The translations under genes were made by a program, and so were the position numbers. From NCBI GenBank assembly GCA_016182875.1, contig JACPFQ010000004.1, forward strand, positions 183,556 to 247,555: a stretch of DNA of 64,000 nt. The letters run 5' to 3'. Below are positions 3 to 58,043 of the stretch, piece after piece (the stretch's first letter is position 1; each line of letters begins with the position of its first letter). The stretch comes from Candidatus Doudnabacteria bacterium (GTDB taxonomy: Bacteria > Patescibacteriota > Doudnabacteria > UBA920 > O2-02-FULL-48-8). The notes beneath the pieces are model-generated. The model was not told where the DNA came from. It saw only the letters and a list, made by a program, of their open reading frames with translations, and did not search any database.

Positions 3-1073
3 TATGAAAAAGTCGTCGCCACACTTGCGACGACTTTCGTTCGGAGCGAGTCGCTGGCGCGTATTCTAGCGCTGGCATTCGAGTCGGGCAAGAACGTGCT
101 CCTCTGGGGACCAGGAGGACACGGGAAGTCGGAGATGGTTCAGGCGGCGCTCGCATGCGTCGCCGAAGAAGCGAACATTTTCGTCCAGTCCTTTGGCGAG
201 GGCATGGACGAGGCGACGCTTTGGGGTGGGTTGGACTTTGCCGCGCTGGAACGTGATAAGCGCCTAGTCTATCACCCCGAGAACAGCTTCCTCAACCGGC
301 CGTACGCCGTGTTCGAGGAAATGTTCGACGCGCCGGCCTCCGTGCTCTTGGGGTTGAAAGACACCCTGACGGCGAGGAAGCTCCGGAAGGGTTCTCAGGT
401 TTTTGCAATGAAGACCAACGTGATCATCGCGATCACGAACAAGAACCCCGACGAGTTGTCGGACATTGGTCCGGCAGCGGCCGCGCTCGTCGAGCGGTTT
501 CCGCTTCAGCTCAAGGTGGATTGGCCGTCTTATAAGTCGGCCGACTACCTGGAGTTATTCCATAAGGTCGCGCCTCGGTTGACGGGCGCTGATCTCAACG
601 GAACAACCGGCGTTCTGGCCGAGGTTATGGCCAAGGCGTCGGAGGGCGGCGAGGTCGTCTCACCGCGTACCGCGGTGCACGCGCTGGGGATCGTCAAAAC
701 CGCGGCCGCGCTGCGCGGCTCGAGCAAGGTCGAGAAATCTGATTTGCTCGACTTGACGTTTCTGCCCGGGATGGAGGCTTTCGCGGCCAACCTCCGGGCG
801 GAATTGGACGCGGCCTACGAGCGATCGCAGGCCGAAGGACGGTTAGTGGAGGCGGAGCGCAAGTTCCAGTCCCTGCTGGCCACGTTCAATGAGGCCGGCG
901 GATCGCCGGTCAAGCTGCTGCAGGTCGCGAAACGTCTGCGCAGTTTTGAGGACGAGGTAGCCGGTCTGAAAGTGACCGACAATCTCGCTGACCGGCGGAA
1001 AAAGTTGCGCGAGGTTACAGCCGAGCGCGCTGGAGCCGCCCAGCAGGCGGCATTCGACAATACCCGCATCTAG
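3..1073 (+). CDS. MoxR-like AAA+ ATPase, 5' end truncated by window edge
   Basis: Frame open from nt 3 with no stop; Walker A-like GPGGHGKS; GC-rich; followed by a vWA-domain gene, the classic MoxR-vWA pairing. Confidence 0.7.
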   Translation, partial: YEKVVATLATTFVRSESLARILALAFESGKNVLLWGPGGHGKSEMVQAALACVAEEANIFVQSFGEGMDEATLWGGLDFAALERDKRLVYHPENSFLNRPYAVFEEMFDAPASVLLGLKDTLTARKLRKGSQVFAMKTNVIIAITNKNPDELSDIGPAAAALVERFPLQLKVDWPSYKSADYLELFHKVAPRLTGADLNGTTGVLAEVMAKASEGGEVVSPRTAVHALGIVKTAAALRGSSKVEKSDLLDLTFLPGMEAFAANLRAELDAAYERSQAEGRLVEAERKFQSLLATFNEAGGSPVKLLQVAKRLRSFEDEVAGLKVTDNLADRRKKLREVTAERAGAAQQAAFDNTRI

Positions 1074-1090
1074 GCGGGAGGAGGCGTACG

Positions 1091-1744
1091 ATGTCGTACT
1101 CGTTTCGGACGTCGCCGCCTCCCACCTATCTTCCGCCGCAAGCGGAGGAGATGCGGGAAGCGGCCAGTAAGGTCGGCCTCAAGTCTTTTAGTCGGGATTT
1201 AGTGGCTGACCTCTGTAACCTGGCGGCTGGTGGGCAAGTAACTCCACCGTCAGGCTACCGCGACACGGTGCGTAGCCGTGTCGAGGAAACGCTCCCACCT
1301 AGGGATGCGAGTGGTCTCTGGTCTATTCCCGCCCGAACGGGTGGGAAGAAGTTCGGAACCATTCGTAGCAAAGACCGCCGCGAGGTGGTCGAAGTCCTGA
1401 CCGAGGAACAGATGAGGTACCACCGCAATGTCTGCGATTTCTTGCAGACGGTGGACCTTCAAAAATTCCCCGGCAATAGTCCGCTGGAGCAGGCGATGAG
1501 TTTGCTCAAATTGTTGTCGAAACAGCAGGGCGGACAGGGCGGCGGTGAAGCTGGGGAACCCCTCCCCATCTTTGCCGAAAATGAAAGACCAGAGGGGACG
1601 GCTGAAGCCCTCCATGATGTCATGGATCAGGTGGATTCGCTCTCCGAGGAAGAGCAGGACATGCTTGATCCCTCCGGCGCGAACCACCCGGTGATCCAGG
1701 ACTCACCGGAGGGCGACGGTCAGCGGACCGGGCACCATCTCCCG
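1091..1744 (+). CDS. Hypothetical protein, probably the N-terminal segment of the downstream vWA protein split by a +1 frameshift
   Basis: GGAGG RBS 5-10 nt before ATG 1091; this frame stays open to 2071 but its translation after ~1745 looks like off-frame GC-rich noise; the vWA frame opens at 1695. Confidence 0.35.
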
Positions 1745-1748
1745 CAAA

Positions 1749-2438
1749 TTGGATCAATTCACCAAGATGCAGGTTCGTCGCCAGTGTCTGGTGGAACCGG
1801 ATCCCACTGGCGAAGAAGTTCGCCAGCGTCCGATCCGGCACTTGGGAGAACTGTCTCGGGTGGCCAAACAGGAATGGGCGACGCGCCAGCAAGCGCCGAC
1901 CTACTTTTTGTACAAAGCCATCTCGGGGCAGCTCCCTGTGCGCGAGCGCGTGACGAGGGTGGAGCGCAAGCAGGCAATCTTCATCCTCGTCGATGGATCC
2001 GGCTCGATGTCGGGCAAGAAGCACTGGAAGGCAACTGGGGTCGTGATGAACCGGTTGAAGTCCGTGCTTGATGGAGACTCGGAAGTTTGGTTGTCGGTTT
2101 TTGACACCAAACTAACCAAAGTCTTCCATGCCACCAACCCGGTGGAGGCCCGCGAACTGATCAAGAAGTTCGCCGCGGGCAACTTCACCGGGGGTGGCAC
2201 TGACATCGCGGCCGCGACTAAGGCCGCGCATGACTATGTTGAGGACCAGATCCAAAAGGGTGCGGCATTATGGCGCCCGGAGGTTGTGGTCCTCACGGAT
2301 GAAGATACTTCCGTGGCCAGTCTCCGCAAGGAGATGATCCCGGGCACGCGTGTGCACGGGTTTGCCATGGAAGTGAAGAACCCCTCGCTCGTCGCGTTCG
2401 CGAAGAGCACGGGCGGGGTCGGCATGGATCAGTTTTAG
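1749..2438 (+). CDS. von Willebrand factor A (vWA) domain protein
   Basis: MIDAS motif ILVDGSGSMSG...TDG-like; TTG or downstream ATG start; partner of the upstream AAA+ ATPase. Confidence 0.7.
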   Translation: MDQFTKMQVRRQCLVEPDPTGEEVRQRPIRHLGELSRVAKQEWATRQQAPTYFLYKAISGQLPVRERVTRVERKQAIFILVDGSGSMSGKKHWKATGVVMNRLKSVLDGDSEVWLSVFDTKLTKVFHATNPVEARELIKKFAAGNFTGGGTDIAAATKAAHDYVEDQIQKGAALWRPEVVVLTDEDTSVASLRKEMIPGTRVHGFAMEVKNPSLVAFAKSTGGVGMDQF

Positions 2439-23544: not shown

Positions 23545-24807
23545 ATGAGAAAAATTCAAATAGGTGTTATGGGATCAATGGCTGATCTAAACTATTCCAA
23601 AGCTACTGAAAAGCTAGCAGAAGAAGTCGGGTTTTGGATTGCTAAAAATGGAGCGGCACTGATTTTTGGGGCGGAAAAAGATGGCGATAGTCTTTCAACA
23701 GCCGCTTGTCGCGGTGCTAAAAAAACTAAAGGCATAACGATCGGTGTAACCTACGCTAAAGGATTGGATGTTTTTGAAAAAAATAATATTGATGTGGTAA
23801 TTGCAACGGGCTTAGAAAGAGGTGGTGGCCGAGAATTGCCACTTGTCTTAAGTTGCGATGCAGTTATTACTTTAAATGGCGGATCAGGAACTCTTACAGA
23901 AGTTGCAATTGCATATCAAGCTAATATTCCCATAGTTGTCCTAAAAGCAACCGGTGGGTGGAGCGGCAGGTTAGCCGGGCAGTATTTAGATGATAGAAAA
24001 CGTATCAAAGCGGAAATTGCTAACAGTCCCAAAGAGGCTGTTCTAAAAGCGTTAGATTTAATTGCACTAAAGCAAGCAAAACAAAAAGATATTTTGGTAC
24101 TGACTGCTGTCCACGGGGACGAATCGATTGGCGTCAGAGCTATGAGAATAATTGATAAGCGAATTCCTGATAACCGTTTTGCTTGGACAATCGCTAACGA
24201 AAAAGCTTTATCTAAAAATCAAAGATTTGTAGATGCCGACCTGAATCGAGCTGCACCAGGCAATAAAAATTCCAAGCAGTATGAAGTTCGCAGAGCATCG
24301 GAACTGTTGAAGTTAGCAAATAATTATCGCTATGTGTTTGATATCCACGGAACAAGTGCCAACTCGGGGATCTTTACGATTGTCACAAATCCGACCCTGG
24401 AAAATTTAGCGTTGGCTTCAATTCTCCCCATAGATAATATTGTTATTTGGATTTCCCAACCCCGAAAAAAATCAGGGCCAATTACCCAGTTTGTTAAGTG
24501 CGGATTGGAAATTGAATGCGGCTTAAAAAATTCACCAAAAACCTTGAAGCAACTAGCTAAAATTTTGGAGGAGATAAACGGTAAGAGTATCGATTATTCG
24601 AATCTTAACCTGAAAGGAAAAAACTTATTCCAAGTTTATGGGAAGCTGATGAAGTCTGAAATTAATAACAAAAATTATAAAAAACTTAAGGACTTCAAAA
24701 AGACTAAAATCAATACAGAGATTTTCTTCCCTCTTTTAGTAGGTCGGTACCTAGGATTAGCCTGTTATAAAATGCGGAAATTGAACCATCGCGACCACCC
24801 TTTATAA
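23545..24807 (+). CDS. fusion protein: N-terminal LOG/SLOG-like Rossmann domain (TIGR00725-like) + C-terminal AstE/AspA (succinylglutamate desuccinylase/aspartoacylase) zinc deacylase domain
   Basis: N-terminus GVMGS...IATGLERGGGRE...NGGSGTLTE; C-terminus HGDESIG, DADLNRAAPG, DIHGT motifs; low GC like backbone. Confidence 0.55.
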   Translation: MRKIQIGVMGSMADLNYSKATEKLAEEVGFWIAKNGAALIFGAEKDGDSLSTAACRGAKKTKGITIGVTYAKGLDVFEKNNIDVVIATGLERGGGRELPLVLSCDAVITLNGGSGTLTEVAIAYQANIPIVVLKATGGWSGRLAGQYLDDRKRIKAEIANSPKEAVLKALDLIALKQAKQKDILVLTAVHGDESIGVRAMRIIDKRIPDNRFAWTIANEKALSKNQRFVDADLNRAAPGNKNSKQYEVRRASELLKLANNYRYVFDIHGTSANSGIFTIVTNPTLENLALASILPIDNIVIWISQPRKKSGPITQFVKCGLEIECGLKNSPKTLKQLAKILEEINGKSIDYSNLNLKGKNLFQVYGKLMKSEINNKNYKKLKDFKKTKINTEIFFPLLVGRYLGLACYKMRKLNHRDHPL

Positions 24808-34692: not shown

Positions 34693-35355
34693 TTATTGTT
34701 TCAGAACATCGCGCATTGAATACCATCCGGTCTTGCCGGCTACCCAATTTGCTGCCAACAGCGCTCCTTGTGCGAAGGCTTTACGATCCTTGGCGGTGTG
34801 GGTCAGCTCGATGGTGTCCGACGGACTGTCGAACCCCACCGTGTGGATGCCGGAGATTGAGCCAGCTCGCGTGAATGAGACGTCGATGGCGCGATTGAAG
34901 CCAGCCTGTGTCATGGTGTTGCGAAGCATCAAGGCGGTGCCTGAGGGCGCGTCTCGCTTGGCCGCGTGGTGCGCTTCATATATCCATGCGCCGTATTGCG
35001 GCTGAGCCTGGAGCAGCCTCGCGGCCTCTGCCACGACCATCTGAAAGAGGTTGACGCCAATGGAGAAGTTCGGGGCAGCCACTACGCCCAGCCCGGCATG
35101 TTCTGCCTCGGTGCGCAGTCGGCTTTCATGCTCGGACCATCCCGTCGTCCCGATGACGACGTGCAGTTTCCGTTCCGCGTACTGTCCAAAATTGGCAATC
35201 AGCGCTTCAGCAGTGGAGAAGTCGATTGCCACGTCCGCCCGGTTCCACTCATTCCGTTCTCGGTTGACGCGGCCTACTACTTCGAAACCCTGTTCCGTAG
35301 CCAGCTGATCTATTAGCCGGCCCATCTTGCCGTATCCGACAATCAGGATTTTCAT
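34693..35355 (-). CDS. dapB: 4-hydroxy-tetrahydrodipicolinate reductase
   Basis: MKILIVGYGKMG N-terminal Rossmann, DapB C-terminal domain; GC-rich. Confidence 0.85.
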   Translation of the reverse strand: MKILIVGYGKMGRLIDQLATEQGFEVVGRVNRERNEWNRADVAIDFSTAEALIANFGQYAERKLHVVIGTTGWSEHESRLRTEAEHAGLGVVAAPNFSIGVNLFQMVVAEAARLLQAQPQYGAWIYEAHHAAKRDAPSGTALMLRNTMTQAGFNRAIDVSFTRAGSISGIHTVGFDSPSDTIELTHTAKDRKAFAQGALLAANWVAGKTGWYSMRDVLKQ

Positions 35356-36197
35356 CTTTTGCTCCAGAAAAACGGGGCGCACAGAGGCGGCCGATACACG
35401 GGCTCCATCAGACCCCGCATGCTCATTACCACTTTCACCGGGATGGGGTTGGTCTCCACGAACAGCGCCTGAACGAGCGGGAACAGTTGGTAGTTGATTC
35501 GCCGCGCCGTCGCCCAGTTGCCGTCGAGCGCCGCATACACCATGTCCACGGTTTCGCGAGGCATGGGGTTTGAGATCACGGAGATCACCCCGTGTCCGCC
35601 GATGCTGATGAGCGGCAGCGTGAGCGCGTCGTCGCCGGACAGATACGTCAGGCGGTCGCCGCAGAGCTGGATGTCAGTCATCATCTGATCGAGCTTGCCG
35701 GTCGCTTCCTTGACGCCCACGATGTACGGATGTTCCGACAGCTCGGCCAGGGTCGGCGGCAGCAGGTCCACGCCCGTACGCGACGGGATATTGTACACGA
35801 TCACGGGCAGGCCGACATCGGCAATTGCGCGGAAATGGGCCAGGAGGCCAGCCTGGGTAGGCCGATTGTAGTACGGTGTCACCACCAGGCAGCCGTCAGC
35901 ACCCGCCTCCTTCGCGTGCTGGGTCAGGCTGACTGCCTCGGCCGTGGCGTTTGAGCCAGTGCCGGCGATGACCGGCACGCGACCCGCGGCTTCTTCGATT
36001 ACGATTTCGGTAACCCGCCGCTGCTCGTCGTGAGAAAGCGTCGGGCTTTCGCCGGTCGTCCCGCAAGGGACGAGGAAATCGATACCCTGCGCGATCTGCC
36101 AGTTCACCATGCGCCGCAGGACTGTCTCATCCACCGAAAGATCCGGGTCGAACGGCGTGACCATGGCGGTCCCGCAACCCTTAAATGTGCGCTTCAT
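35352..36197 (-). CDS. dapA: 4-hydroxy-tetrahydrodipicolinate synthase
   Basis: DapA family (GTTGES, active-site Lys region); GC-rich; start set at MKRTFKG. Confidence 0.85.
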   Translation of the reverse strand: MKRTFKGCGTAMVTPFDPDLSVDETVLRRMVNWQIAQGIDFLVPCGTTGESPTLSHDEQRRVTEIVIEEAAGRVPVIAGTGSNATAEAVSLTQHAKEAGADGCLVVTPYYNRPTQAGLLAHFRAIADVGLPVIVYNIPSRTGVDLLPPTLAELSEHPYIVGVKEATGKLDQMMTDIQLCGDRLTYLSGDDALTLPLISIGGHGVISVISNPMPRETVDMVYAALDGNWATARRINYQLFPLVQALFVETNPIPVKVVMSMRGLMEPVYRPPLCAPFFWSKR

Positions 36198-36604
36198 GTT
36201 CTTCCTCCGATTATGGCTCTGCTCTTCGGCAGCGGAGCTGGTGTCCAGAACTCTCAAGCACAAGCTTTATTACTACTTGCGCCGAAGAGACTTTACACCA
36301 AGAAAGCCGCCTTCTTTCGAAGGCGGCTTTAGGTGATTTGATTAGGCTAGAACTGATTAATCAAGACTCACCAAAAAGCTACCTTCAGAGGAAGGCTTCT
36401 TACCGTACTTTTTGCTTGAGAAAGTCTGATTAGTCATCGTTAGCTAATACTAAATTAAAATTCCGTTGTTGTCAATTTGGTGTGGCTTTACAATCACGCT
36501 CGAACGTATTTTAGCAAAAATTTGTAAAAAATGACAGAGAGCCGCGCTATGCGCGGCACAATAGCTGTAATGCGCTCGGGCGCGGCGGAATCCCCCTAAA
36601 TTCC

Positions 36605-36648
36605 AAAAATAAAAACCAGCAACATTTTCTCCTTTCGAGTGTTGCTGG
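36605..36648 (-). terminator. rho-independent terminator for the minus-strand operon 37902->36684
   Basis: ccagcaaca-N15-tgttgctgg hairpin followed on the minus strand by T-run. Confidence 0.6.
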
Positions 36649-36683
36649 CCTTGTGGGAGTTGATTAGGAACGAAACCTCTTCG

Positions 36684-37226
36684 CTATTTACTCGCCTCGG
36701 GCATCCCGAAACGAAGCGCCGGACGGACATAGTTTAGGTTGTCGTCGAGACAGTGCCAGTGCTCACCTAGGGAGCCCCGGTACACACCGAGGTATGGAAC
36801 GAACAGGCGACCGTTGTAGTGCTCGACGACCCAGCGCCATCCGAAGACAGCCTTTCCCAGGAAGTATCTCTCGTAAAATTCTTTTCCCCGAGGCCGAATG
36901 ATTTGGAGTTCGAAGAGACCGGCACAGCCGGCGAGGAGGTCGCCTGCCTTGAGCGCTTCGTACACGGCATGGCCGGTAACCCCAGCGTCAGTGTCTTGGC
37001 CTGGCGCAAGCCAAAGTTCGAACCGGGCTGTATAGAACTTTTTCGGACTGGTTTCTTCCAACTCTCGATGCACCCTCTTTCGTACCCAGCTTGGATAGGC
37101 TGGTCGGAGTACTGGCCTGCGGGATTCAATCACAAGCTCGGCACGATCCTCGCAACTCACCTTGATTTCGACTTCTCGTCGGTGAGGATAGTCGTAATCT
37201 GGAGAAAACGTTGGGTCGATATTCAT
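36684..37226 (-). CDS. GC-rich hypothetical protein (180 aa)
   Basis: ORF, coding-like composition, no recognisable motifs. Confidence 0.45.
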   Translation of the reverse strand: MNIDPTFSPDYDYPHRREVEIKVSCEDRAELVIESRRPVLRPAYPSWVRKRVHRELEETSPKKFYTARFELWLAPGQDTDAGVTGHAVYEALKAGDLLAGCAGLFELQIIRPRGKEFYERYFLGKAVFGWRWVVEHYNGRLFVPYLGVYRGSLGEHWHCLDDNLNYVRPALRFGMPEASK

Positions 37227-37248
37227 GATAATCCTCCTGTCGAAGAGC

Positions 37249-37902
37249 TTACTCGTCCCGCGAGTCCTTGTTGCGTCCGGCTTCCTCTCCGGGCGCGAAG
37301 AGATCGAGAAGCCCGCGCCCGCGAGCGCTTGCTTCCATCACTCTACGCTCCAGCCTTGCGTCCATTTTGTCCAGAGAAGTGGACGAGTTTGCAACTGGTG
37401 CAAGATCATGCGTTTCGAGCACCTCGCATCTTTCAAGCCAGACTAGCGCCGCATTTCGAGGGTCACTCACCCTCGTTAAATCATGTCGCGCTATAATCTT
37501 GGCTGCGTTCCGTTCCTCTCGTGGGAGCGGATAGGCTGTAGAGAGTTCCAGTGGTCGACCACCCGACTCGCAGCGAACGAACCATCCTCCTTCGTGTTTT
37601 CTCAACTCCGTTTTTTTCGTTAACGAGCGATCCTGCCGCTTGCCAACGGACCTGATTGTGTACATCCGTTTAGGCCAGTCTTCCAGACTTTTTCGGAGAT
37701 CCTGCACCTCCTGTTCTGTTGCGCTGAAGCGAAGAGTACTGTCCTCAATGGGTGGCTTTTCCGTCCCCATTTGATCGAGTATGTTCTGAGCCAGAACGAG
37801 GACTTCGTAGAAGGCAAATGGCTCTAGCCGGAGTATGTATTTTCTCCTCGTTGGCTTAAAAACGCCGACCGCGTGGTCGGTGTTTCGTTTGCGATTTGGC
37901 AA
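37249..37902 (-). CDS. GC-rich hypothetical protein (217 aa)
   Basis: ORF; first gene of two-gene operon with consensus promoter upstream. Confidence 0.45.
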   Translation of the reverse strand: MPNRKRNTDHAVGVFKPTRRKYILRLEPFAFYEVLVLAQNILDQMGTEKPPIEDSTLRFSATEQEVQDLRKSLEDWPKRMYTIRSVGKRQDRSLTKKTELRKHEGGWFVRCESGGRPLELSTAYPLPREERNAAKIIARHDLTRVSDPRNAALVWLERCEVLETHDLAPVANSSTSLDKMDARLERRVMEASARGRGLLDLFAPGEEAGRNKDSRDE

Positions 37903-37974
37903 TACGAATTTAGCCGACCACTGGCCGGCTCTTCTTGGTAGAAGATTGCATTTGCAATAAATTCATATGTTGAA

Positions 37975-38003: not shown

Positions 38004-38006
38004 GGC

Positions 38007-38034
38007 TTGAATATTATTGTTAAATCAGTATAAT
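38007..38034 (+). promoter_or_regulatory. putative promoter of tRNA-Lys (TTGAAT-N16-TATAAT)
   Basis: -10 ends 11 nt before tRNA 5' end. Confidence 0.45.
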
Positions 38035-38045
38035 ATCTAAGCACT

Positions 38046-38122
38046 GGGTGCATAGCTCAGCCTGGTAGAGCACCTGCCTTTTAAGCAGAGGGTCGCAGGT
38101 TCGAATCCTGCTGCACCCACCA
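38046..38122 (+). tRNA. tRNA-Lys (anticodon UUU), CCA encoded
   Basis: Cloverleaf; anticodon loop CTTTTAA; T-arm GGTTCGAATCC. Confidence 0.9.
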
Positions 38123-38342
38123 AGTATCTCTTATTCGAATGACAGGGTTATTTGCGATCTTGTTTCGACAAATATAATCAAGCGGTTCGTTTAATTCCGC
38201 TTGTGTAATTCTGCCATCTCGCATGTAAAGTTTTTTGAATATAGTTTTAGCCAAGAGAGCCTTCAATTCTGGTTCTTTTCTGGTGGGGCTGCTGCCGATA
38301 TGTCCACGGCTGCACCTACATGGAAAAGGTGTAAAATCAAAG

Positions 38343-38370
38343 AGCGGATTAAATTCCGCTCTTTTTTTCT
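38343..38370 (+). terminator. rho-independent terminator
   Basis: agagcgga ttaaa ttccgctct + T7; a related hairpin caagcgg..ttaattccgcttg at ~38180..38205. Confidence 0.55.
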
Positions 38371-38610
38371 AATCTGACGGGAATAGCAAGCGAGAGGAAA
38401 ACCCTCTTCGCCTTTCAGCCCTCAATTTTGCTCCAGTTATACTCGGCTGAACTCTTGGTGGATCCGTAAGCCTGGAATTGCTTTTTACCGCACAAGGCGG
38501 ATTTATTGCACAATACTATTTCCAGCCAATAGGCCGAAAAACACCAACTCTCGCCATTCCAAGGGGATTATAACAGGTTTTATAAGCTAGAATATGTGGG
38601 CCAATTTAAT

Positions 38611-39987
38611 CTAGCTAATTGTGAGACATGTCGCAACAGCCTCGTCGCTTCCTTGCCTTAATAATCGCAATCTGGAACCTTGAATTTCTTTTTGCTGTTC
38701 CAAGCTGGTTATTTGCACATTAATCTTAGTTATCATAGTATCCTTCTTATTTCCAAAATTTCTATCCAAATGCTCCAATTCAGACTTATGGGTCGCAAGT
38801 TTTGTATTCAGTTCAGTTGTGTTCTTAGCCAATGTCAGTTCCTGCAAAGTATCAGCCCGTCTTGGCTTTTGACTACGAAAAAGTCCTATTACAAAATGTA
38901 AGATTAACTCTGCAACCATGAGTATGCCGAACACTATCATGGCCAAGGGTAGAAGGACTATCTTAAATGGCGTGAATATGAAATTGAAGCGATGCTCCGT
39001 ACGTATTTTATGTAAGATCAAGCCCACAGCGAATACCAAAGGCACGAACAGAATACGCAACAAGGCATCAATAACAACGCTTTCGTGCCCTTTCATTACA
39101 GGTACCAGAATCACAAGCACATAAGCTAACAACAACAGAAAACCTATACCCAAAATCGCATATAAGGTAAGTTGGTTAATCACATGCACAGAATTCCTGT
39201 AGCGCTTCTCAACGTAATTAATGAGAAAATCAACTAAGGTTACAAACACCAAAGCAATGATGGCGCTAAAAATATAGGCGGACTTTACTGCTATAAAACC
39301 AATCGTAATAGTGCTGCCCACCTGAACTTTCAATACGTCACTGAATATCGCATAGGTTATGAAAAAGTCTCCAATGAATAACAGGACAGCCAGGCCTAGA
39401 TAGAAGTAGTATAGGATGTCCATTTCAACATTCGCTAGTGCAGAGCTTAACTGATTTTTCGCCGCAGTTATAAGCGTGCCCCAACGATTCAAAGTCTTCG
39501 GCTGTTTATCAGGTTGTGCAATTGGGGCCTTATTATCTTGCTCCTGCTGTAATTTACGATATTCTTCCTGCCTTCGTGCCAGTTCCTTTTCGAGATCACT
39601 AATCTCACTAAGCAAATTCCTTTTATCTTCCTGGTGCTGATTCTCTAAGTTTGTCGTTAAAGCACTAATGTCCTGTTTGAGTTCCTTAATTTTTTGGTCA
39701 ATCGTCTCAATTTTAATTTCGCAGTCCTTAGTTTCATTGGAAAAACCTAAATCAAAGATTTTAGCCTGGACTTTTTTTATAACATCTTCCAAAGGTTCGG
39801 TTTCCGTTGCCTTCGCCATCTGTTTTTTCCAGTGATTCTGATTCTTTTTTACTATCTTCTTACCGACTCTGTAGCCAGTCTTGTAAGGATCAGTAGACCT
39901 GCCTGAAAGCCTGTAAAGTAAATACACGGTCACAGGGGCAACTGCTCCAACTAGAATAAGAATTAGGTTATTGCTCCAAGTTCCCAT
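38611..39987 (-). CDS. membrane protein with N-terminal TM, central coiled coil, polytopic core and C-terminal coiled coil; unknown function
   Basis: Hydrophobicity and heptad patterns only; AT-rich. Confidence 0.5.
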   Translation of the reverse strand: MGTWSNNLILILVGAVAPVTVYLLYRLSGRSTDPYKTGYRVGKKIVKKNQNHWKKQMAKATETEPLEDVIKKVQAKIFDLGFSNETKDCEIKIETIDQKIKELKQDISALTTNLENQHQEDKRNLLSEISDLEKELARRQEEYRKLQQEQDNKAPIAQPDKQPKTLNRWGTLITAAKNQLSSALANVEMDILYYFYLGLAVLLFIGDFFITYAIFSDVLKVQVGSTITIGFIAVKSAYIFSAIIALVFVTLVDFLINYVEKRYRNSVHVINQLTLYAILGIGFLLLLAYVLVILVPVMKGHESVVIDALLRILFVPLVFAVGLILHKIRTEHRFNFIFTPFKIVLLPLAMIVFGILMVAELILHFVIGLFRSQKPRRADTLQELTLAKNTTELNTKLATHKSELEHLDRNFGNKKDTMITKINVQITSLEQQKEIQGSRLRLLRQGSDEAVATCLTIS

Positions 39988-40005
39988 AAATTTTAAAGGG
40001 ATTAA

Positions 40006-41238
40006 TTATAAGTTCTTGAACACCACCGTACACGGATTCAGGATTTTTTTATAAAATTTTTCTAAAGCATTTCTGTAGCTAAGATCACCCTTAAAATCTA
40101 CGCCGATAACAGCGAAAGTGTCCTTCTCACTTTTACAAAGGGCATTTTCCGTGATGAATGAACGGGAGCCGTTATTGTAATTTTCTAAAGCCCTATAGTC
40201 GGAGGGCCAAACAAAGGAACTGCCAAACGAAAACGCCCCGTCGTTAACCAACACATAATGATTATTATTATATTTATCCAAGCTGTTATCAAGCACCCTG
40301 GTTAAAAGTTGGTCCAAGAAAGTATCAGTATGGCAGTATCGGCTTGGATTCCCCAAACCTTTGCTATAAAATTCTTGTATTGCCTTGAAGACAACATCGG
40401 CATCGTTCGTAGTTACAACCGAACCATTTTGTGAAATGGCTGGCGGCATTCTTTCGCCTATTTGCACCAGTGCAGTTTTGTCCCTATTGGAATAGACAAA
40501 CTTCGCCTTGTATTCAGGATCGGTGTAATTAACGGTGAGCGTTTCTTTGCACGGATTATCTTGCTGCGCGGGGCCATATAGCCTCACAGTGATTACATCG
40601 CCAGGGGAGAGTGGCTCGTCCTCGGTCAAATATTCCTGCATTTTATTAAAAACAACATCGCTATATTTGATCTGAGCGCCGCGTTCCAGGTCTTGTCGGT
40701 CGAGTGAAGTTACCGAACCTGAAATATCCAAGGATAAGTCAAAATGCCTATTACGTTTATTTTCATTGAAGAGTGTTAGTGGAGTATCGTCCTTGCCATC
40801 GAACCTTTTTGCAAGGTCAACTATATGTTTCCTCAGACTGTTAGGCTCCTCTGTAAGTTTGGCCAGTGGATAAGTTTCATTACCGATCTTTATATACTTA
40901 CAATTCTCATCGCGACAATTTTCTACATTACTTTGATCATCTAGCGCTTCAATCTGAATCGCAACCTCTGCACGCACCCCCTTACCAATTCCTTGAATAA
41001 TTAAAATCAGAATCGGGGATACCATGATCAAAAGCAGAATGATAAAACCTCCTAATAATTTAGGGTTGAATTTGGCTTGAGCAGTATCTCGCTTGTTGGA
41101 TTTTTTCCTCGAACTACTTTCTGATAGCGGATCGAATAAGGATTGGCTAACATGGCTGTTCTTGAAACCGCAAGAATAGCAAAAAGTGTCAGATTTTTTT
41201 ATTTCCACCCCACAATTGAAGCAAAACATAAAGGTCAA
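40006..41238 (-). CDS. Zn-ribbon / TM / extracellular vWA-like domain protein
   Basis: CFNCG...CYSCG zinc ribbon, one TM, MIDAS-like FDLSLDISGSVTS...VLVNDGAFS. Confidence 0.5.
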   Translation of the reverse strand: MTFMFCFNCGVEIKKSDTFCYSCGFKNSHVSQSLFDPLSESSSRKKSNKRDTAQAKFNPKLLGGFIILLLIMVSPILILIIQGIGKGVRAEVAIQIEALDDQSNVENCRDENCKYIKIGNETYPLAKLTEEPNSLRKHIVDLAKRFDGKDDTPLTLFNENKRNRHFDLSLDISGSVTSLDRQDLERGAQIKYSDVVFNKMQEYLTEDEPLSPGDVITVRLYGPAQQDNPCKETLTVNYTDPEYKAKFVYSNRDKTALVQIGERMPPAISQNGSVVTTNDADVVFKAIQEFYSKGLGNPSRYCHTDTFLDQLLTRVLDNSLDKYNNNHYVLVNDGAFSFGSSFVWPSDYRALENYNNGSRSFITENALCKSEKDTFAVIGVDFKGDLSYRNALEKFYKKILNPCTVVFKNL

Positions 41239-41481
41239 TATTATTTTAAACTAAGCTTACCAGTGACAACGTAATAGAACGCCCTTCTAACGCCTTCAAA
41301 AATTACGAATATGATCATGCCACCGACAACGAAACTAAAAACCCTTTGGTTTGAGTCTATAGTCGCAATTAGTAAATTGAATGTCCAGGCAATTATAAGA
41401 CATAAAATATATAGAACTTTCGCAAACTATACCAGGGCTTTTGTTCTAAATCTTCCTTAGTTAAATTCATAACTTGATTTT

Positions 41482-42357
41482 TTAAGGCAAGCTTTCGCAA
41501 GCGACACCGTCATGATCGCCATCTAATCTGTCAAAATTATAACTTGGACTACCTCCACCCGCTTTAAAGTATGCCTGGGCTTCTGCCTGAGTCTTGAAAT
41601 CTCCGCAATCTCTGTCTTGACCAGTAATCGGAGGGGTTAAAACAGGCGCAGAACTGCCAGTTTGTGTACCTGAATCGCAAGCCTCATCTGCCCACATGCC
41701 GCGTTCTGCCGCTATAGCTTCCGCCTCCGCTTGCTTAAACTCACCTTGGTATTTGTAAGGCTTGTTGTAAGTGTATTCTTCGGCATAGCCAAGCCTGATC
41801 ATTTCCTTGCTAACATTCAGGTCGCCTACAAATACATATCGAAGCAAACGATTATATTTGTCCAGGTTGTCCTGGGATGAATCAGCTTCCAACTTAACCT
41901 TTTTGCCACTCATCAACTCCTTGGCTTTATTTGAAGCTTCGGGGCCAAAGCACTCTACAAGGGAATCGGAGTCAACTATTTCTGGCGTATCAAGACCAAT
42001 GAGCCTAACCCTCTGGATTTTATTGTCCAAGCTAATGTCAATGGTGTCGCCATCAACGACTTTGACTACTGAGTATAACTGACTTTCAGAGGTTTGAATT
42101 TTGTCTGGCATTGTCGACTCAGCTTGGGATTGTGAATCTTTTTGCTGTGAGTCGGATACAACTCCCTGAACCGATCCTTTTGGAGAAGCATTGGCGATTA
42201 AGATTACAAAAAATATAGAAGCAATGCCGAATGCTGCAGCTAACCTTTTACGCGACCATTCGAGCTTCAAAAGTCTATGAAGCAACTGCGGCCTAATCAG
42301 GCTCAACCCTAACCCAGCCAAAGAAGCTAACAGGAGTAAAACAAATAATACTTGCAT
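41482..42357 (-). CDS. secreted/membrane-anchored thermonuclease (SNase-like) with C-terminal Excalibur calcium-binding domain
   Basis: SNase core VVKVVDGDTIDIS...RVRLIGLDTPE...YNRLLRYVFV; Excalibur DRLDGDHDGVACE. Confidence 0.75.
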   Translation of the reverse strand: MQVLFVLLLLASLAGLGLSLIRPQLLHRLLKLEWSRKRLAAAFGIASIFFVILIANASPKGSVQGVVSDSQQKDSQSQAESTMPDKIQTSESQLYSVVKVVDGDTIDISLDNKIQRVRLIGLDTPEIVDSDSLVECFGPEASNKAKELMSGKKVKLEADSSQDNLDKYNRLLRYVFVGDLNVSKEMIRLGYAEEYTYNKPYKYQGEFKQAEAEAIAAERGMWADEACDSGTQTGSSAPVLTPPITGQDRDCGDFKTQAEAQAYFKAGGGSPSYNFDRLDGDHDGVACESLP

Positions 42358-42640
42358 ATAGTGAGTAAATTATATTCTCTTTTGCTTGGGCTGTAAATGT
42401 TATCGGCACATGAAAAATGCGTCATAAGTCAACACAAACCCCTTGCCCTGAAGAGAAATAAAAAGGCCCTACCTTCGAAAATCGGCGCAAAACAAGGGTC
42501 AGCGAAAAACCAATCATCCTGCTTGGATTTATGGATACCAATTGCTTATAGCAATTCTCGAAATTTAACACTTAGACAGGTTTAAGTCATTGTGCTAAAT
42601 TGTGGAATGTTCAAATACTGGGCTGTTTAGTCCACCAAGT

Positions 42641-42663
42641 AAAAATCCCTGAAAGGGATTTTT
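42641..42663. terminator. perfect hairpin terminator (aaaaatccct gaa agggattttt)
   Basis: Overlaps stop of 42662..43144. Confidence 0.5.
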
Positions 42664-43144
42664 ACTTATGTAATTGAGTTCTTATCTCAGTAGCTAATCG
42701 TTTCGAAGTATCCCAAATCACGGGCAGTTCCAGGTAGTCAATCAATATCGCCACCCAAGCCGCGATTAGGGGCCAGTGGAACAATTCAATGTGTGTCGCA
42801 AAGCGCTCAATCACCACCTCGTCTGTTATCCAAAGAATGTGAATCCACTGAACATTGAGGAACAAAAGGTAGAGGAAGTTTTTTGCGGTCCATCTTTCCC
42901 GGAGCAGGTGAATGTATAGGATCGAGGTAGAAATGATCGCCGGTATTTCTGAATAATCGATGAAAGTTGAGATTATCCCCCAAATATCAGACAGGCCAAA
43001 ATAGCTCTGCCCTGTGAGTTTTAATAGGACGACGTCGGTCAACATCCAATATAAGTGGAAAATTTGCAACAGGAATAACCCGGTTGCAACCGAGAGGTTG
43101 AGCAAGTAGTGGCGTTGATACCAAACCCAAAACTTGTTAAACAT
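42662..43144 (-). CDS. polytopic membrane protein, unknown
   Basis: 4-5 TM helices. Confidence 0.45.
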   Translation of the reverse strand: MFNKFWVWYQRHYLLNLSVATGLFLLQIFHLYWMLTDVVLLKLTGQSYFGLSDIWGIISTFIDYSEIPAIISTSILYIHLLRERWTAKNFLYLLFLNVQWIHILWITDEVVIERFATHIELFHWPLIAAWVAILIDYLELPVIWDTSKRLATEIRTQLHK

Positions 43145-43158
43145 AGTATAATCATAGC

Positions 43159-43845
43159 ATGCAAGAACGGCTTCAAAAATTTTTATCCTCGGCTGGCGTT
43201 GCCTCGCGGCGCGCGGCCGAAAAGTTGATAACTTCCGGCAAAGTTAAAGTTAACGGCGCAGTAATTACAAAGCTTGGAACAAAAGTTGATCCCGAAATCG
43301 ACCAAGTCTCGGTTAACGGCAAAAAAATCCAAAGTACGCAAAAATTGATTTACCTTGCCCTCAACAAACCCAAGCGGTACATGACCACGCGGTCTGACCC
43401 AGAACGCCGCCGCACCATTTATGATCTTCTGCCGCCTGATTTGAAAAATAAAGTCTGGCCGGTCGGTCGCCTGGACTTCAATACCGAAGGCTTGCTTTTG
43501 TTTACCAATGATGGCGAGCTGACCCAAAAGTTGACCCATCCTTCCAGTGAACATGAGAAGGAATACGAAGTAACCTTGGATAAAGAATTATCCGAGGGCA
43601 AAATGGAAAAAATCAGAAACGGAATGATTTTAGACGGCAAAAAGACCGCCCCTAGTCTAATTCGTACGAATGGTACCACAGTTTATCTCACCATTCATGA
43701 AGGCTGGAAGCGGCAAATCAGAAGAATGTTTTCATTACTTGGATTTACCGTGCGCAATCTCAAGCGGATTAGAGTCGGCAAACTGCGCCTGGGGGATTTA
43801 GAACTAGGAAAATACCGTTTGGTTAATTTGAAAGATATAATCTAA
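43159..43845 (+). CDS. rRNA pseudouridine synthase (RsuA/RluB family)
   Basis: S4 domain plus catalytic VGRLDxxxEGLLL motif. Confidence 0.8.
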   Translation: MQERLQKFLSSAGVASRRAAEKLITSGKVKVNGAVITKLGTKVDPEIDQVSVNGKKIQSTQKLIYLALNKPKRYMTTRSDPERRRTIYDLLPPDLKNKVWPVGRLDFNTEGLLLFTNDGELTQKLTHPSSEHEKEYEVTLDKELSEGKMEKIRNGMILDGKKTAPSLIRTNGTTVYLTIHEGWKRQIRRMFSLLGFTVRNLKRIRVGKLRLGDLELGKYRLVNLKDII

Positions 43846-55326: not shown

Positions 55327-55453
55327 ATATTGTTTCAAGATACGGTTCCGGGTATTGTTAATAATATCTAGAATCGTGTCTTGAGGCATCCCGTCATCAC
55401 GACGGGACAAGCCGAGTTCGGGCGGTCTCCCGGACAACAAGGAGGAACCCACC

Positions 55454-56113
55454 ATGCCAAGTCATGGAACCCCCCTCTCCGCAACGCATTTGGCGCCGTT
55501 TGTTAGTACGGCGACCAAAGCCCTGATCCTGGTCGCGAATGATCTGGGACAGGGAGTCCAGGAAAGCTGGGCGAACCGGAGCGAAGAAATGCAGTCGCTC
55601 TTCCGCCAGGCGTTTCTGCCGCCGCAACAGACGGGCCAGCCGCTCATGGCGCGCTATATCGTGCCGATCCCGAACATCGCGGTGAACTACGACCGCAAGT
55701 TCGTGGACGCGGCAATGGCCGGTGGTCCGCAGACCCCGTCCAACTACGATGTCCTCAAAGTCGGCGACCTCTACGTCGCCCGGCACAAGGGCATCGTCCG
55801 GCGCAACATCACGATCGTGAACTTCGGGCTGGACGTCAGCTCGGAACAGGCGCAGGAGTTCGGGCAGGCGCACAAACTCGGTCGCACGCTCGATCCATGG
55901 GAGTGCTTCTCCATCGGCGAGCACCGGCCCATGCTCAATCGCGAGCTCGGCTTCGACTACATGGCCGTTGTCTCGTTGGAGAAGTGCGAGTTCGGCGGTG
56001 AGTCGCGAGTCTGCAGCTGCTGGTGGGACGAGCGGGAGCGCGAGGCCGCTCTCAACTGGTTCACCGACGGCTGGCACGTCCGCTGCTGGTTCGGTTTCGT
56101 CCGCGAGTCCTAG
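55454..56113 (+). CDS. DGR variable (target) protein; C-terminal ~38 residues encoded by VR
   Basis: C-terminus ...CEFGGESRVCSCWWDEREREAALNWFTDGWHVRCWFGFVRES lies in the VR; GC-rich (~60%). Confidence 0.8.
   Translation: MPSHGTPLSATHLAPFVSTATKALILVANDLGQGVQESWANRSEEMQSLFRQAFLPPQQTGQPLMARYIVPIPNIAVNYDRKFVDAAMAGGPQTPSNYDVLKVGDLYVARHKGIVRRNITIVNFGLDVSSEQAQEFGQAHKLGRTLDPWECFSIGEHRPMLNRELGFDYMAVVSLEKCEFGGESRVCSCWWDEREREAALNWFTDGWHVRCWFGFVRES
55989..56104 (+). repeat. DGR variable repeat (VR), 116 bp
   Basis: Gap-free alignment to TR 56439..56554 with 17 mismatches, every one at a TR adenine. Confidence 0.85.
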
Positions 56114-56966: not shown

Positions 56967-58043
56967 TTGGCTCATGGTTTTGACGAGATTATTTCTGTTG
57001 AGAATCTGCTCTTGGCTTGGCAAGAGTTTATCCGCGGCAAGAGGAATAAGCCGGATGTCCAACTCTTTGCTCACGCTTTGATTGATAATATTTTACAGCT
57101 TCACAATGATTTAGCCAACAAGACTTATCGGCACGGCGGATATTACCAGTTTAAGATTTCCGATCCCAAGCCGCGGGATATCAGCAAAGCCTCGGTTCGC
57201 GATAGGCTTTTGCATCATGCGATATATCGAATCCTGTATCCATTCTTTGACCGGACATTTATCGCTGATTCTTTTTCCTGCCGGGTTGATAAAGGCACGC
57301 ACAAGGCGGTCAACCGATTGCTGGCAATGTTCAGAAAAGCAAGCAAGAACAATACCCGCACATGCTGGGTTCTCAAATGCGACATCAGGAAGTTCTTTGC
57401 CAGCATAGATCATGATGTTTTGAAAAATATTTTAGCTAGACATGTTCCTGACATAGATATGCTTTGGCTTCTAGGGAATATTATTGATAGCTTTGGGTCA
57501 GATTGCTTCGTCGGCCGCCAGACTAAACCCCGGCCAGAAAACCGGCCTCCTCGCAATGACATTAAATCTGTCTTTGCGAGCGAAGCGAAGCAATCTCATA
57601 ACCAGGGTCTTCCCTTAGGCAACCTAACCTCCCAGCTCTTCGTCAACATATATATGAACGAGTTTGACCAGTTTGTGAAGCATAAACTCAAGGTTAAGCA
57701 TTATATACGCTATGCCGATGATTTTATAATTCTATCTCCAAGCGAAGAGGAACTCACTGCAATACTGTCACGTATTGCAGTACTCCTCAAGCAAGAGCTT
57801 AAACTGCGGCTTCATCCACATAAAGTCACTCTTAAAACCTTTGCTTCAGGCATTGATTTTTTAGGGTGGGTTAATTTTCCCCATCATAGAGTGCTACGCA
57901 CAGCCACGAAAAAACGGATGCTTAAGCGTATCCGTGTAAATTCAACCAATGAAACCTTGCAATCTTATTTAGGACTTTTAAAGCACGGGAATACTTTTCA
58001 AAAAATTTTCGCCAGCCCGCAGCAATGGCCGCGGGGAAGTTGA
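56967..58043 (+). CDS. DGR-type reverse transcriptase
   Basis: RT motifs: KCDIRKFFASIDH (2), GLPLGNLTSQLFVNIYMNEFD (4, DGR-specific LGNLTSQ), YIRYADDFIIL (5, YADD), GIDFLGW (7); TTG start after AGAGG RBS. Confidence 0.85.
   Translation: MAHGFDEIISVENLLLAWQEFIRGKRNKPDVQLFAHALIDNILQLHNDLANKTYRHGGYYQFKISDPKPRDISKASVRDRLLHHAIYRILYPFFDRTFIADSFSCRVDKGTHKAVNRLLAMFRKASKNNTRTCWVLKCDIRKFFASIDHDVLKNILARHVPDIDMLWLLGNIIDSFGSDCFVGRQTKPRPENRPPRNDIKSVFASEAKQSHNQGLPLGNLTSQLFVNIYMNEFDQFVKHKLKVKHYIRYADDFIILSPSEEELTAILSRIAVLLKQELKLRLHPHKVTLKTFASGIDFLGWVNFPHHRVLRTATKKRMLKRIRVNSTNETLQSYLGLLKHGNTFQKIFASPQQWPRGS
57501..57597. repeat. ~97-bp palindromic element (GCGAAGCGAAG family) lying in frame within the RT gene between motifs 3 and 4
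   Basis: gattgcttcgtcggccgcc...ccggcctcctcgcaatgaca...tgtctttgcgagcgaagcgaagcaatctc; encodes ...GSDCFVGRQTKPRPENRPPRNDIKSVFASEAKQSH... Confidence 0.5.

What the first reader, a model, noticed from the sequence alone, without database searches (positions are those of the whole stretch)
38123..43150. AT-rich four-gene block on the 3' side of tRNA-Lys: surface nuclease, Zn-ribbon-vWA and coiled-coil membrane proteins
Directly 3' of tRNA-Lys lies a ~5-kb block, all on the minus strand, at lower GC than the backbone. It encodes: a secreted SNase-type thermonuclease with an Excalibur Ca-binding tail (41482..42357); a protein with cytoplasmic zinc ribbon, one TM and an extracellular vWA-like domain with MIDAS-like DISGSV (40006..41238); and two polytopic/coiled-coil membrane proteins (38611..39987, 42662..43144). 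No integrase is present. Together with dprA elsewhere in the window, this may be a cell-surface DNA capture and degradation module (nucleotide scavenging or DNA uptake). Alternatively it is a tRNA-adjacent accessory island.
Basis: partly seen in the sequence, partly recalled or inferred. Interest (0 to 1): 0.6.

Follow-up and report, generated by a model that had tools for sequence, protein, structure and literature searches.

The report
Accessory surface nuclease–vWA membrane module
Next to a tRNA-Lys gene in a Candidatus Doudnabacteria genome sits a rare, horizontally acquired three-gene set: a cell-surface DNA/RNA-cutting enzyme, an unannotated metal-site adhesion-type (vWA) membrane protein, and a coiled-coil membrane partner; the three travel together in distant relatives, and their joint function has not been tested.

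Summary
The observation mostly holds. The tRNA-Lys gene, the four minus-strand genes, the SNase+Excalibur nuclease, the Zn-ribbon/TM protein and the low GC are all present.

The block has three genes, not four. The 160-aa gene (42662..43144) is a core gene that abuts rluB in relatives and has backbone composition.

The trio (38611..42357) is accessory. Eleven related genomes keep dnaJ–tRNA-Lys–rluB, each with different cargo, and none has the trio. There is no integrase and no tRNA repeat.

Elsewhere the vWA protein is always followed by the coiled-coil partner. A surface-anchored SNase lies within 4 kb in six lineages, in varying order. The background was 0 SNase genes in 1.17 Mb.

dprA lies 9 kb away in the core dprA–topA pair and is not evidence of a link.

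Most likely this is a cell-surface nucleic-acid capture and degradation module. That function is inferred, not shown. Defence, adhesion and competence readings remain open.

The parts
38046..38122 (+). tRNA-Lys (anticodon UUU). It is the conserved landmark in the middle of a hypervariable interval between dnaJ and the 160-aa/rluB gene pair.
   Evidence: ARAGORN and Rfam at 72.6 bits. The gene is present in this interval in the 11 related genomes used for synteny, but in either orientation.
38123..38610 (.). Non-coding spacer of 488 bp between the tRNA and the trio. It contains a strong hairpin followed by a T-run at 38339..38364.
   Evidence: No ORF runs the length of the spacer in the three frames read on the minus strand; every frame is broken by several stops. 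A terminator-like site has 10 pairs. No repeat of the tRNA 3' end occurs anywhere in the window.
38611..39987 (-). 458-aa membrane partner. It has an N-terminal TM, a coiled-coil region of about 160 aa, a bundle of 5-6 TM segments with invariant D207 and D217, a C-terminal coiled coil, and a conserved end motif LRxG[SC]D[ED]AV. It matches no known family.
   Evidence: Hydropathy scan. Six-sequence alignment A6. Only coiled-coil noise in Pfam, PADLOC, NCBIfam and PDB. It sits directly downstream of the vWA gene in every locus seen.
40006..41229 (-). 407-aa type-II membrane protein: cytoplasmic CxxC..CxxC zinc ribbon, one TM (about residues 56-80), a small beta/alpha pre-domain, and an extracytoplasmic vWA domain. 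The vWA domain has a complete MIDAS (D168-x-S170-x-S172 ... T303 ... D330) and six conserved cysteines.
41482..42357 (-). 291-aa membrane-anchored extracellular Ca-dependent nuclease: a two-segment N-terminal hydrophobic anchor, a Ser/Gln-rich linker, an SNase domain with an intact active site, and a C-terminal Excalibur Ca-binding motif (DGDHDGVACE).
   Evidence: Pfam. NCBIfam thermonuclease NucI and EcnA. Alignment to S. aureus Nuc. Hydropathy and K/R-rich loop.
42369..42397 (-). Promoter-like site (TTTACA-17-TATAAT, 11 of 12 matches) just upstream of the SNase start. It is a consensus match only.
42662..43144 (-). 160-aa hydrophobic protein. It is NOT part of the module. It is a core gene paired divergently with rluB (43159..43845) and marks the right edge of the variable region.
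   Evidence: tblastn found 53-76% identity at the same position in 9 loci from related genomes. GC3 is 0.565. It is absent from all other trio loci.
34693..37902 (-). Second cargo block of the same hotspot, on the 5' side of the tRNA: dapB and dapA (58-62% GC) and two orphan ORFs. It is context, not part of the trio.
   Evidence: Pfam, composition. It is absent from relatives at this position. Contiguity is confirmed in independent Logan contigs.

Best explanation
Window 38611..42357 is a three-gene accessory cell-envelope module. It has been inserted, without any recognisable integration machinery, into a hypervariable hotspot that flanks tRNA-Lys between dnaJ and rluB in Candidatus Doudnabacteria.

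The three products are:
1. A nuclease held at the outer face of the membrane, with an active SNase fold and an Excalibur Ca site.
2. A type-II membrane protein whose ectodomain is a divergent vWA domain with a complete metal-ion-dependent adhesion site, and whose cytoplasmic tip is a zinc ribbon.
3. A polytopic membrane protein with long coiled coils, always encoded directly after the vWA gene.

Proposed mechanism (inferred): the vWA protein and the coiled-coil protein form a membrane complex. Its MIDAS face binds an acidic ligand at the cell surface. That ligand could be the nuclease's acidic linker, a surface polymer, or a partner or host cell component. The tethered Ca-dependent nuclease then cuts extracellular or host-derived DNA/RNA close to the cell. 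This would supply nucleotides to an organism of a group that generally lacks de novo nucleotide synthesis.

Shown: gene content, the vWA fold as a confident prediction with structural matches, conserved motifs, conserved gene linkage, and accessory status. Inferred: the physical complex, the ligand, and the physiological role.
For: Accessory status:
- Eleven related genomes keep dnaK-dnaJ-[tRNA-Lys]-(160-aa gene)-rluB-ndh-topA. Each has different cargo on either side of the tRNA, and none has the trio.
- One relative, L020, has no cargo at all.
- The trio's GC3 is shifted while the 160-aa gene's is not.

Rarity:
- 3 clusters in a word-indexed search of 5.8 billion proteins.
- 14 clusters at E<1e-30 among 1.84 billion representatives.

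Module linkage:
- The vWA gene and the coiled-coil gene are adjacent, with gaps of about 2-25 nt or a short overlap, in the window, L006-L010, L012, L093, L094, L097, L103 and L104/L105.
- An SNase lies within 4 kb in six lineages, in three different arrangements: upstream co-directional, divergent, and downstream and operonic.
- No SNase was found in 1.17 Mb of 80 background loci, mostly from related candidate-phyla bacteria.

Surface location:
- Every linked SNase carries a surface-retention device: a TM hairpin, Excalibur, PG_binding_1, a C-terminal TM or a Cys-rich module.
- The vWA ectodomain has six conserved cysteines.

vWA/MIDAS.

Active nuclease.

Group context: Patescibacteria generally lack nucleotide synthesis, and the com system was not needed for growth of a cultivated Saccharibacterium, so how these bacteria acquire nucleotides is an open question (PMC10633639).
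Against: - No experiment, no complex prediction and no expression data exist for this module.
- The module is rare and accessory, so it cannot be a general nucleotide-supply route for the group.
- One lineage (L103) has a non-SNase third gene. Another (L093) shows a PD-(D/E)xK nuclease instead within the short contig.
- In the window the SNase is separated from the vWA gene by 243 bp and may have its own promoter.
- The side of the membrane on which the partner's coiled coils lie is unresolved.
- Linkage counts are not fully independent, because the loci share ancestry.
Confidence: 0.45

Rival explanations
1. The trio is an anti-phage or inter-microbial conflict system. The vWA/coiled-coil membrane pair would sense an envelope event such as phage adsorption, DNA injection or a competitor's contact. 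The nuclease would be the effector. The trio sits in a defence-island-like hotspot.
For: - It lies in a hypervariable locus whose occupants in relatives include what looks by eye like a toxin-antitoxin pair, and a transposase-like gene.
- Distribution is patchy and rare, and composition looks foreign.
- In L093 and L097 a PD-(D/E)xK nuclease that matches PADLOC candidate PDC-S02 (E 1e-34 to 1e-36) lies immediately upstream of the vWA gene.
- The nuclease partner is exchangeable, as effector modules often are in defence systems.
Against: - All linked SNases are built to sit outside the cell. Known defence nucleases act in the cytoplasm.
- PADLOC has no match for the vWA or partner proteins beyond coiled-coil noise.
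- No homologue was found in phage, plasmid or IMG/VR collections.
- The PDC-S02-like genes may be independent neighbours.
Confidence: 0.2
2. The core is an adhesion and host-attachment device for an epibiotic lifestyle. The vWA/MIDAS ectodomain, with an inserted beta arm like those of pilus-tip adhesins, binds a host surface ligand. The coiled-coil partner anchors it or signals. The SNase is a frequently co-selected surface enzyme rather than a mechanistic partner.
For: - The MIDAS is complete.
- Multiple adhesins are required for epibiotic growth in a cultivated Saccharibacterium (PMC10633639).
- L103 has the pair without an SNase.
Against: - SNase linkage persists through rearrangements and includes tight operons with 2-3 nt gaps in the most distant branch. 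This is hard to explain without a functional tie.
- The cytoplasmic Zn ribbon and the large partner protein are not features of simple adhesins.
Confidence: 0.2
3. The trio is an accessory part of the DNA-uptake (competence) pathway. The SNase would act as an entry nuclease like EndA or NucA, feeding ComEC, with dprA downstream in the pathway.
For: - A membrane-anchored nuclease faces outward.
- dprA is present in the window.
- Competence genes are widespread in the group (PMC10633639).
Against: - dprA is 9 kb away in the conserved dprA-topA backbone, which relatives lacking the trio also share.
- No comEA, comEC or comF gene was noticed next to the trio in the loci whose genes were listed. 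This was not searched for systematically.
- SNase is not the fold of the known entry nucleases. This point rests on my own knowledge and was not tested here.
Confidence: 0.1
4. The genes are unrelated neighbours that happen to sit together in a recombination hotspot.
For: - The hotspot collects miscellaneous genes.
- The SNase has a separate promoter-like site.
Against: - The same pair recurs in nine or more loci with different flanks, down to 17-22% identity.
- An SNase recurs in six lineages, against 0 in 1.17 Mb of background.
Confidence: 0.05

Closest known systems
vWA / integrin I-domain superfamily with MIDAS, especially membrane-anchored bacterial vWA proteins (BatB, PDB 3ibs) and pilus-associated vWA adhesins (S. 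sanguinis PilB minor pilin 7b7p, SpaC, GBS104)
   Same: - DxSxS...T...D motif at the canonical ends of beta1 and beta4 and the loop before the next helix.
- Extracytoplasmic and membrane-tethered.
- A beta insertion within the domain, as in adhesin-type vWA domains.
   Different: - No Pfam or PDB sequence-profile match at E<=1.
- N-terminal cytoplasmic zinc ribbon.
- Obligate pairing with a coiled-coil polytopic protein.
- No MoxR, pilin or sortase context.
Staphylococcal thermonuclease family (Nuc, NucI, EcnA) and surface SNase-like nucleases of nucleotide-auxotrophic bacteria such as mycoplasmas (the mycoplasma comparison is from my own knowledge, not tested here)
   Same: - SNase domain with all catalytic and Ca residues.
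- Extracellular, membrane-retained and Ca-linked.
- The host group lacks nucleotide synthesis.
   Different: - Anchored by an N-terminal two-segment hairpin plus an Excalibur tail rather than a lipoprotein or sortase signal.
- Linked to a vWA/coiled-coil pair rather than to an ABC transporter.
tRNA-associated genomic islands
   Same: - Sits immediately 3' of a tRNA gene.
- Present or absent among relatives.
- Deviant composition.
   Different: - No integrase, no direct repeat of the tRNA 3' end, and no mobility genes.
- Cargo differs on both sides of the tRNA, and the tRNA itself flips orientation among relatives. This looks more like a recombination hotspot than a site-specific integration site.
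TcaA-type proteins of Staphylococcus (N-terminal zinc ribbon, one TM, extracellular domain)
   Same: Same N-terminal architecture. There is a weak NCBIfam match over residues 3-70 only (E 1.5e-4, far below the cut-off).
   Different: The ectodomain is unrelated. The match is confined to the Zn ribbon and TM segment.

Membership tests
vWA domain with MIDAS | Alpha/beta vWA (Rossmann-like) fold | tested here: met
   [not shown]
vWA domain with MIDAS | MIDAS residues DxSxS, Thr and Asp in the right loops | tested here: met
   D168 and S170 are invariant. S172, T303 and D330 are conserved in at least 90% of 22 sequences. They lie at the end of strand 161-168, before helix 305-315, and after strand 322-328 of the model. 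The geometry in the model was not measured.
vWA domain with MIDAS | Match to curated vWA sequence models | tested here: not met
   No VWA family appeared in Pfam for any of the 22 members at E<=1. No vWA chain appeared in a PDB profile search at E<=10. This is therefore a divergent, unannotated branch.
vWA domain with MIDAS | Metal-dependent ligand binding | not testable with these tools
   Needs biochemistry.
Staphylococcal nuclease (SNase, PF00565) | Domain match above the curated cut-off | tested here: met
   76.4 bits against a cut-off of 21.
Staphylococcal nuclease (SNase, PF00565) | Catalytic and Ca-binding residues (Nuc D21, R35, D40, T41, E43, R87) | tested here: met
   They align to D104, R118, D123, T124, E126 and R170. 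The Nuc sequence and numbering come from my own knowledge.
Excalibur Ca-binding domain (PF05901) | Domain match and DxDxDGxxCE motif | tested here: met
   33.4 bits against a cut-off of 22. The sequence ends ...DGDHDGVACESLP.
Integrase-mediated tRNA genomic island | Tyrosine or serine recombinase gene | tested here: not met
   No recombinase family matched any ORF from 36684 to 43845, nor dapB or dapA at 34693 to 36263.
Integrase-mediated tRNA genomic island | Direct repeat of the tRNA 3' end at the far boundary | tested here: not met
   The 22-nt and 33-nt 3' segments, allowing up to 3 mismatches, matched only the tRNA itself.
Integrase-mediated tRNA genomic island | Variable presence among relatives and deviant composition | tested here: met
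Known anti-phage defence systems (PADLOC-DB 2.0) | Match of the signature proteins to a system model | tested here: not met
   No hit for the vWA protein. Only weak coiled-coil hits (E>6e-4) for the partner. The SNase matches a generic SNc+LTD model.
Competence (DNA-uptake) machinery | Genomic or phyletic association with comEA, comEC, comF or dprA | tested here: not met
   dprA is 9 kb away beside topA in the conserved backbone. No com gene was noticed beside the trio in the loci whose genes were listed.

The most novel reading that the evidence does not exclude
The vWA/MIDAS zinc-ribbon protein and its coiled-coil polytopic partner form a previously undescribed trans-membrane machine. It would position or control an outward-facing nuclease. 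That could be a dedicated nucleic-acid harvesting or host-feeding apparatus of ultra-small episymbiotic bacteria, or a surface nuclease trap against incoming foreign DNA. The conserved C-terminal G[SC]D[ED]AV motif of the partner, or the acidic linker of the nuclease, could be the MIDAS ligand.
Probability: 0.2. Interest if true: 0.7.

Novelty: new variant of a known kind. Interest (0 to 1): 0.45.

Why it matters
Candidate-phyla bacteria cannot make nucleotides. In the one genetically tractable relative, the competence system proved dispensable for growth (PMC10633639), so how they feed on nucleic acid is open. A surface nuclease that is genetically tied to a metal-dependent binding ectodomain and a membrane partner is a concrete, testable candidate for such a function, at least in the lineages that carry it.

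The work also defines two protein families with no entry in Pfam, NCBIfam or PADLOC. One is a vWA branch invisible to sequence profiles. The other is its coiled-coil partner.

Finally, it documents an integrase-free hotspot around tRNA-Lys in Doudnabacteria.

The module is rare and accessory, so its importance is limited to a niche unless the function proves unusual.

Tried and rejected
- Pfam on the 407-aa protein and on 22 family members, and a PDB profile search, found no vWA. The fold had to come from structure prediction.
- A word-indexed homologue search with the 458-aa protein returned only itself, because coiled-coil words saturated the candidate list. A profile search with A4 in the same database returned only 4 proteins.
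An 8-sequence alignment then worked.
- The afdb50 fold library was not available.
- No relatives were found in IMG/VR, phage or plasmid collections.
- No Rfam family was found in the spacer.
- A search for tRNA-Lys 3' repeats found none.
- PADLOC, PHROGs and NCBIfam gave nothing specific for the vWA protein, the partner, the 160-aa protein or the two orphan ORFs.
- I considered that the contig might be chimeric at the tRNA, because Logan contigs break there. I rejected this because both flanks belong to one syntenic backbone in relatives, and the Logan contigs from one sample overlap by about 38 bp inside the tRNA.
- Two literature searches found no description of this gene set.
Full report
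**What is in the sequence**

ARAGORN and Rfam both place a tRNA-Lys(UUU) gene at 38046..38122 on the + strand. Four minus-strand ORFs follow it:
- 38611..39987, 458 aa
- 40006..41238 from a TTG, or 41229 from the ATG that public gene calls use, giving 407 aa
- 41482..42357, 291 aa
- 42662..43144, 160 aa

A source name attached to the identical 407-aa protein assigns the genome to Candidatus Doudnabacteria. The flanking genes are ordinary housekeeping genes. On the left are hrcA, grpE, hsp20, dnaK, dnaJ, then dapB and dapA. On the right are an rluB-type pseudouridine synthase, an NDH-2-like oxidoreductase, topA and dprA.

**The nuclease**

The 291-aa protein matches SNase (E 2.9e-21) and Excalibur (E 5.7e-8) above Pfam's cut-offs. 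It also matches NCBIfam thermonuclease models. Aligned with S. aureus Nuc (sequence from my own knowledge), the Ca ligands and catalytic residues are all present: D104, R118, D123, T124, E126 and R170.

Its N-terminus has two hydrophobic segments separated by a loop with 6 Lys/Arg in 17 residues. This fits a hairpin anchor that leaves the catalytic domain outside the cell. The C-terminus ends in the Excalibur motif DGDHDGVACE.

**The zinc-ribbon protein is a vWA protein**

Pfam sees only a weak Zn-ribbon at the N-terminus. One TM segment follows at about residues 56-80.

An exhaustive profile search of 1.84 billion representatives found only 14 clusters at E<1e-30. It also found about ten more distant proteins that match the ectodomain alone. 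In a 22-sequence alignment, D168 and S170 are invariant, and S172, T303 and D330 are conserved in at least 90% of sequences. This is the DxSxS...T...D pattern of a MIDAS. Six cysteines are invariant among the eight closer members, which suits an extracytoplasmic domain.

The MIDAS residues fall at the end of strand 161-168, before helix 305-315, and after strand 322-328. These are the canonical positions. Sequence-profile searches of Pfam and the PDB do not find vWA at all.

**The 458-aa partner**

Hydropathy shows an N-terminal TM segment and then about 160 residues with no hydrophobic segment. The start of that stretch is rich in Lys/Arg, so it is probably cytoplasmic. A bundle of five or six hydrophobic segments follows, then a C-terminal tail of about 95 residues.

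Six homologues share this layout. They also share invariant D207 and D217 in the membrane region and a conserved terminal motif LRxG[SC]D[ED]AV. Pfam, PADLOC, NCBIfam, PHROGs and a PDB profile search return only coiled-coil noise. I could not model it, and the side of the membrane on which the C-terminal coiled coil lies is unresolved.

**Three genes, not four, and accessory**

I fetched 80 loci around rluB homologues from species-representative genomes and mapped the window's proteins onto them.

Eleven related genomes (rluB 62-73% identical) share this backbone: dnaK, a 297-aa gene, dnaJ, a gap, rluB, ndh, topA. In eight of these eleven, plus one short contig, the 160-aa gene is present at 53-76% identity, directly abutting rluB as in the window. 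None has a match to the nuclease, the vWA protein or the partner.

tRNA-Lys(UUU) lies in the dnaJ-rluB gap in all eleven, but in either orientation. The gap ranges from 179 bp with no cargo (L020) to about 4.8 kb, and its content differs every time. Read by eye from the ORF translations, and not checked with HMMs, the contents include:
- a transposase-like ORF
- a toxin-antitoxin-like pair with pilin-like proteins
- an ABC transporter with a hydrolase
- a ProC-like gene

In the window both sides of the tRNA are filled. On the left are dapB, dapA and two orphan ORFs, at 54-62% GC. On the right is the trio, at about 41% GC.

Gene-by-gene composition puts the boundary between the nuclease and the 160-aa gene. 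GC3 is 0.42-0.43 for the trio and 0.565 for the 160-aa gene, against a gene mean of 0.544.

There is no recombinase. There is also no copy of the tRNA 3' end anywhere else in the window, even allowing three mismatches. This is an integrase-free recombination hotspot, not a classical integrative island.

Public Logan contigs break inside the tRNA. However, the left and right contigs of one sample overlap within it, and both flanks are syntenic with relatives. I therefore see no reason to suspect a chimeric join.

**The trio is a module**

| Locus | vWA identity to window | Arrangement |
|---|---|---|
| L006-L010 | 38-39% | SNase on the divergent strand, then vWA, then a 449-aa partner; flanks unrelated to the window (NeuB, carbamoyltransferase) |
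| L012 | about 37% | vWA then partner; contig too short to see more |
| L097 | about 34% | SNase with a peptidoglycan-binding domain, a PD-(D/E)xK nuclease, vWA, partner |
| L095 | 45% | SNase with an Excalibur-like tail, 3.8 kb upstream of the vWA gene |
| L093 | about 38% | EVE-PD-(D/E)xK nuclease, vWA, partner |
| L094, L104/L105 | 17-22%, no zinc ribbon | vWA, partner, SNase, with gaps of about 2-25 nt, i.e. an operon |
| L103 | 17% | vWA, partner, then a third gene that is not an SNase |

The vWA-partner pair is therefore invariant. An SNase is linked in six lineages, in three different arrangements.

As a background I searched the 80 rluB loci, 1.17 Mb of mostly related genomes, with three SNase domains and found none. 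Chance adjacency is very unlikely, with the caveat that the loci share ancestry.

Every linked SNase carries some device to stay at the cell surface: a TM hairpin, Excalibur, PG_binding_1, a C-terminal TM or a Cys-rich module.

**What it most likely does**

Shown or strongly supported:
- an active-looking, outward-facing, Ca-type nuclease
- an outward-facing vWA domain with an intact metal-dependent binding site, tied through one TM segment to a cytoplasmic zinc ribbon
- an obligate membrane partner
- horizontal, patchy distribution

Inferred: the two membrane proteins form a complex whose MIDAS binds an acidic ligand at the surface, and the nuclease degrades nucleic acid there. Patescibacteria generally lack nucleotide synthesis, and in a cultivated Saccharibacterium the com genes were not needed for growth (PMC10633639). 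Surface nucleic-acid harvesting is therefore the reading I favour, at about 0.45.

Three other readings stay open:
- Conflict or defence, about 0.2. It is supported by the hotspot context and by the PDC-S02-like nucleases beside the pair in two loci. It is weakened by the extracellular build of the SNases and by the absence of matches in defence, phage and plasmid collections.
- Adhesion, about 0.2. It is supported by the adhesin-type vWA matches and by L103, which has the pair without an SNase.
- Competence, about 0.1. It has little support: dprA sits beside topA in the conserved backbone, 9 kb away, including in relatives that lack the trio.

**Novelty and score**

The parts belong to known superfamilies. 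The vWA branch and its partner have no entry in the libraries searched. Two literature searches found no description of the three-gene set, which does not prove that none exists.

I class it as a new variant of a known kind. It is a real, conserved, rare accessory module whose function remains to be tested, and I rate its interest as moderate at 0.45.

Noticed in passing
window 34693..37902: dapB and dapA (58-62% GC, GC3 up to 0.79) and two orphan ORFs (180 and 217 aa, no family match) fill the 5' side of the same tRNA-Lys hotspot. They are absent from this position in all 11 related genomes used for synteny. This looks like a separate, recent acquisition from a high-GC donor. Logan contigs confirm that the 180-aa ORF, dapA and dapB are contiguous.
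   Followed up: partly
L013-L027 (tRNA-Lys positions): The tRNA-Lys(UUU) gene between dnaJ and rluB is on the + strand in some Doudnabacteria relatives and on the - strand in others. This implies repeated local inversions or re-insertions around it.
   Followed up: no
window 38094..38131; L001-L004, L100: Independent Logan assemblies of several runs (SRR12113420, SRR12113422, SRR12113424) all break inside the 3' half of tRNA-Lys. Left and right contigs overlap by about 38 bp. This indicates a branch in the assembly graph: a shared tRNA sequence with different flanks in the community.
   Followed up: partly
L093 178..1035; L097 1421..2629: A PD-(D/E)xK nuclease (YhcG/NucS-like, fused to an EVE domain in L093) lies immediately upstream of the vWA gene in two lineages. 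It matches PADLOC candidate defence family PDC-S02 (E 1e-34 to 1e-36). It could be a neighbour in a defence island or an alternative nuclease partner.
   Followed up: partly
L006 1702..2589; L097 200..1261; L093 3900..4766: Two linked SNases and one separate secreted Cys-rich protein share an N-terminal module with the pattern HPG..S..GCH.C..C..WG....HCH after the signal peptide. Pfam at E<=0.01 did not identify this module.
   Followed up: no
window 56967..58043: A reverse-transcriptase gene (RVT_1, E 8e-25) overlaps the end of the der/engA GTPase gene on the opposite strand. Its type (group II intron, retron or diversity-generating element) was not determined.
   Followed up: no
window 96..2071: A MoxR-type AAA ATPase (matching the MoxR-vWA-beta-propeller ternary system model) and an unknown 326-aa ORF sit at 60-62% GC, far above the window mean. 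This may be another foreign patch. It is 37 kb from the trio and no link is evident.
   Followed up: no
window 23545..24807: A fusion of a SLOG (LDcluster4) domain with an AstE/AspA-type deacylase domain sits at 39% GC (GC3 0.34, the lowest in the window).
   Followed up: no
window 55397..56113: Overlapping ORFs on both strands in a patch of 63% GC. It is unclear which, if either, is a gene.
   Followed up: no
L104 4593..11339: In one distant lineage the vWA-partner-SNase operon lies just downstream of a ribonucleotide reductase gene and of ftsA and ftsZ. This may be coincidence, but it is a nucleotide-metabolism neighbour.
   Followed up: no
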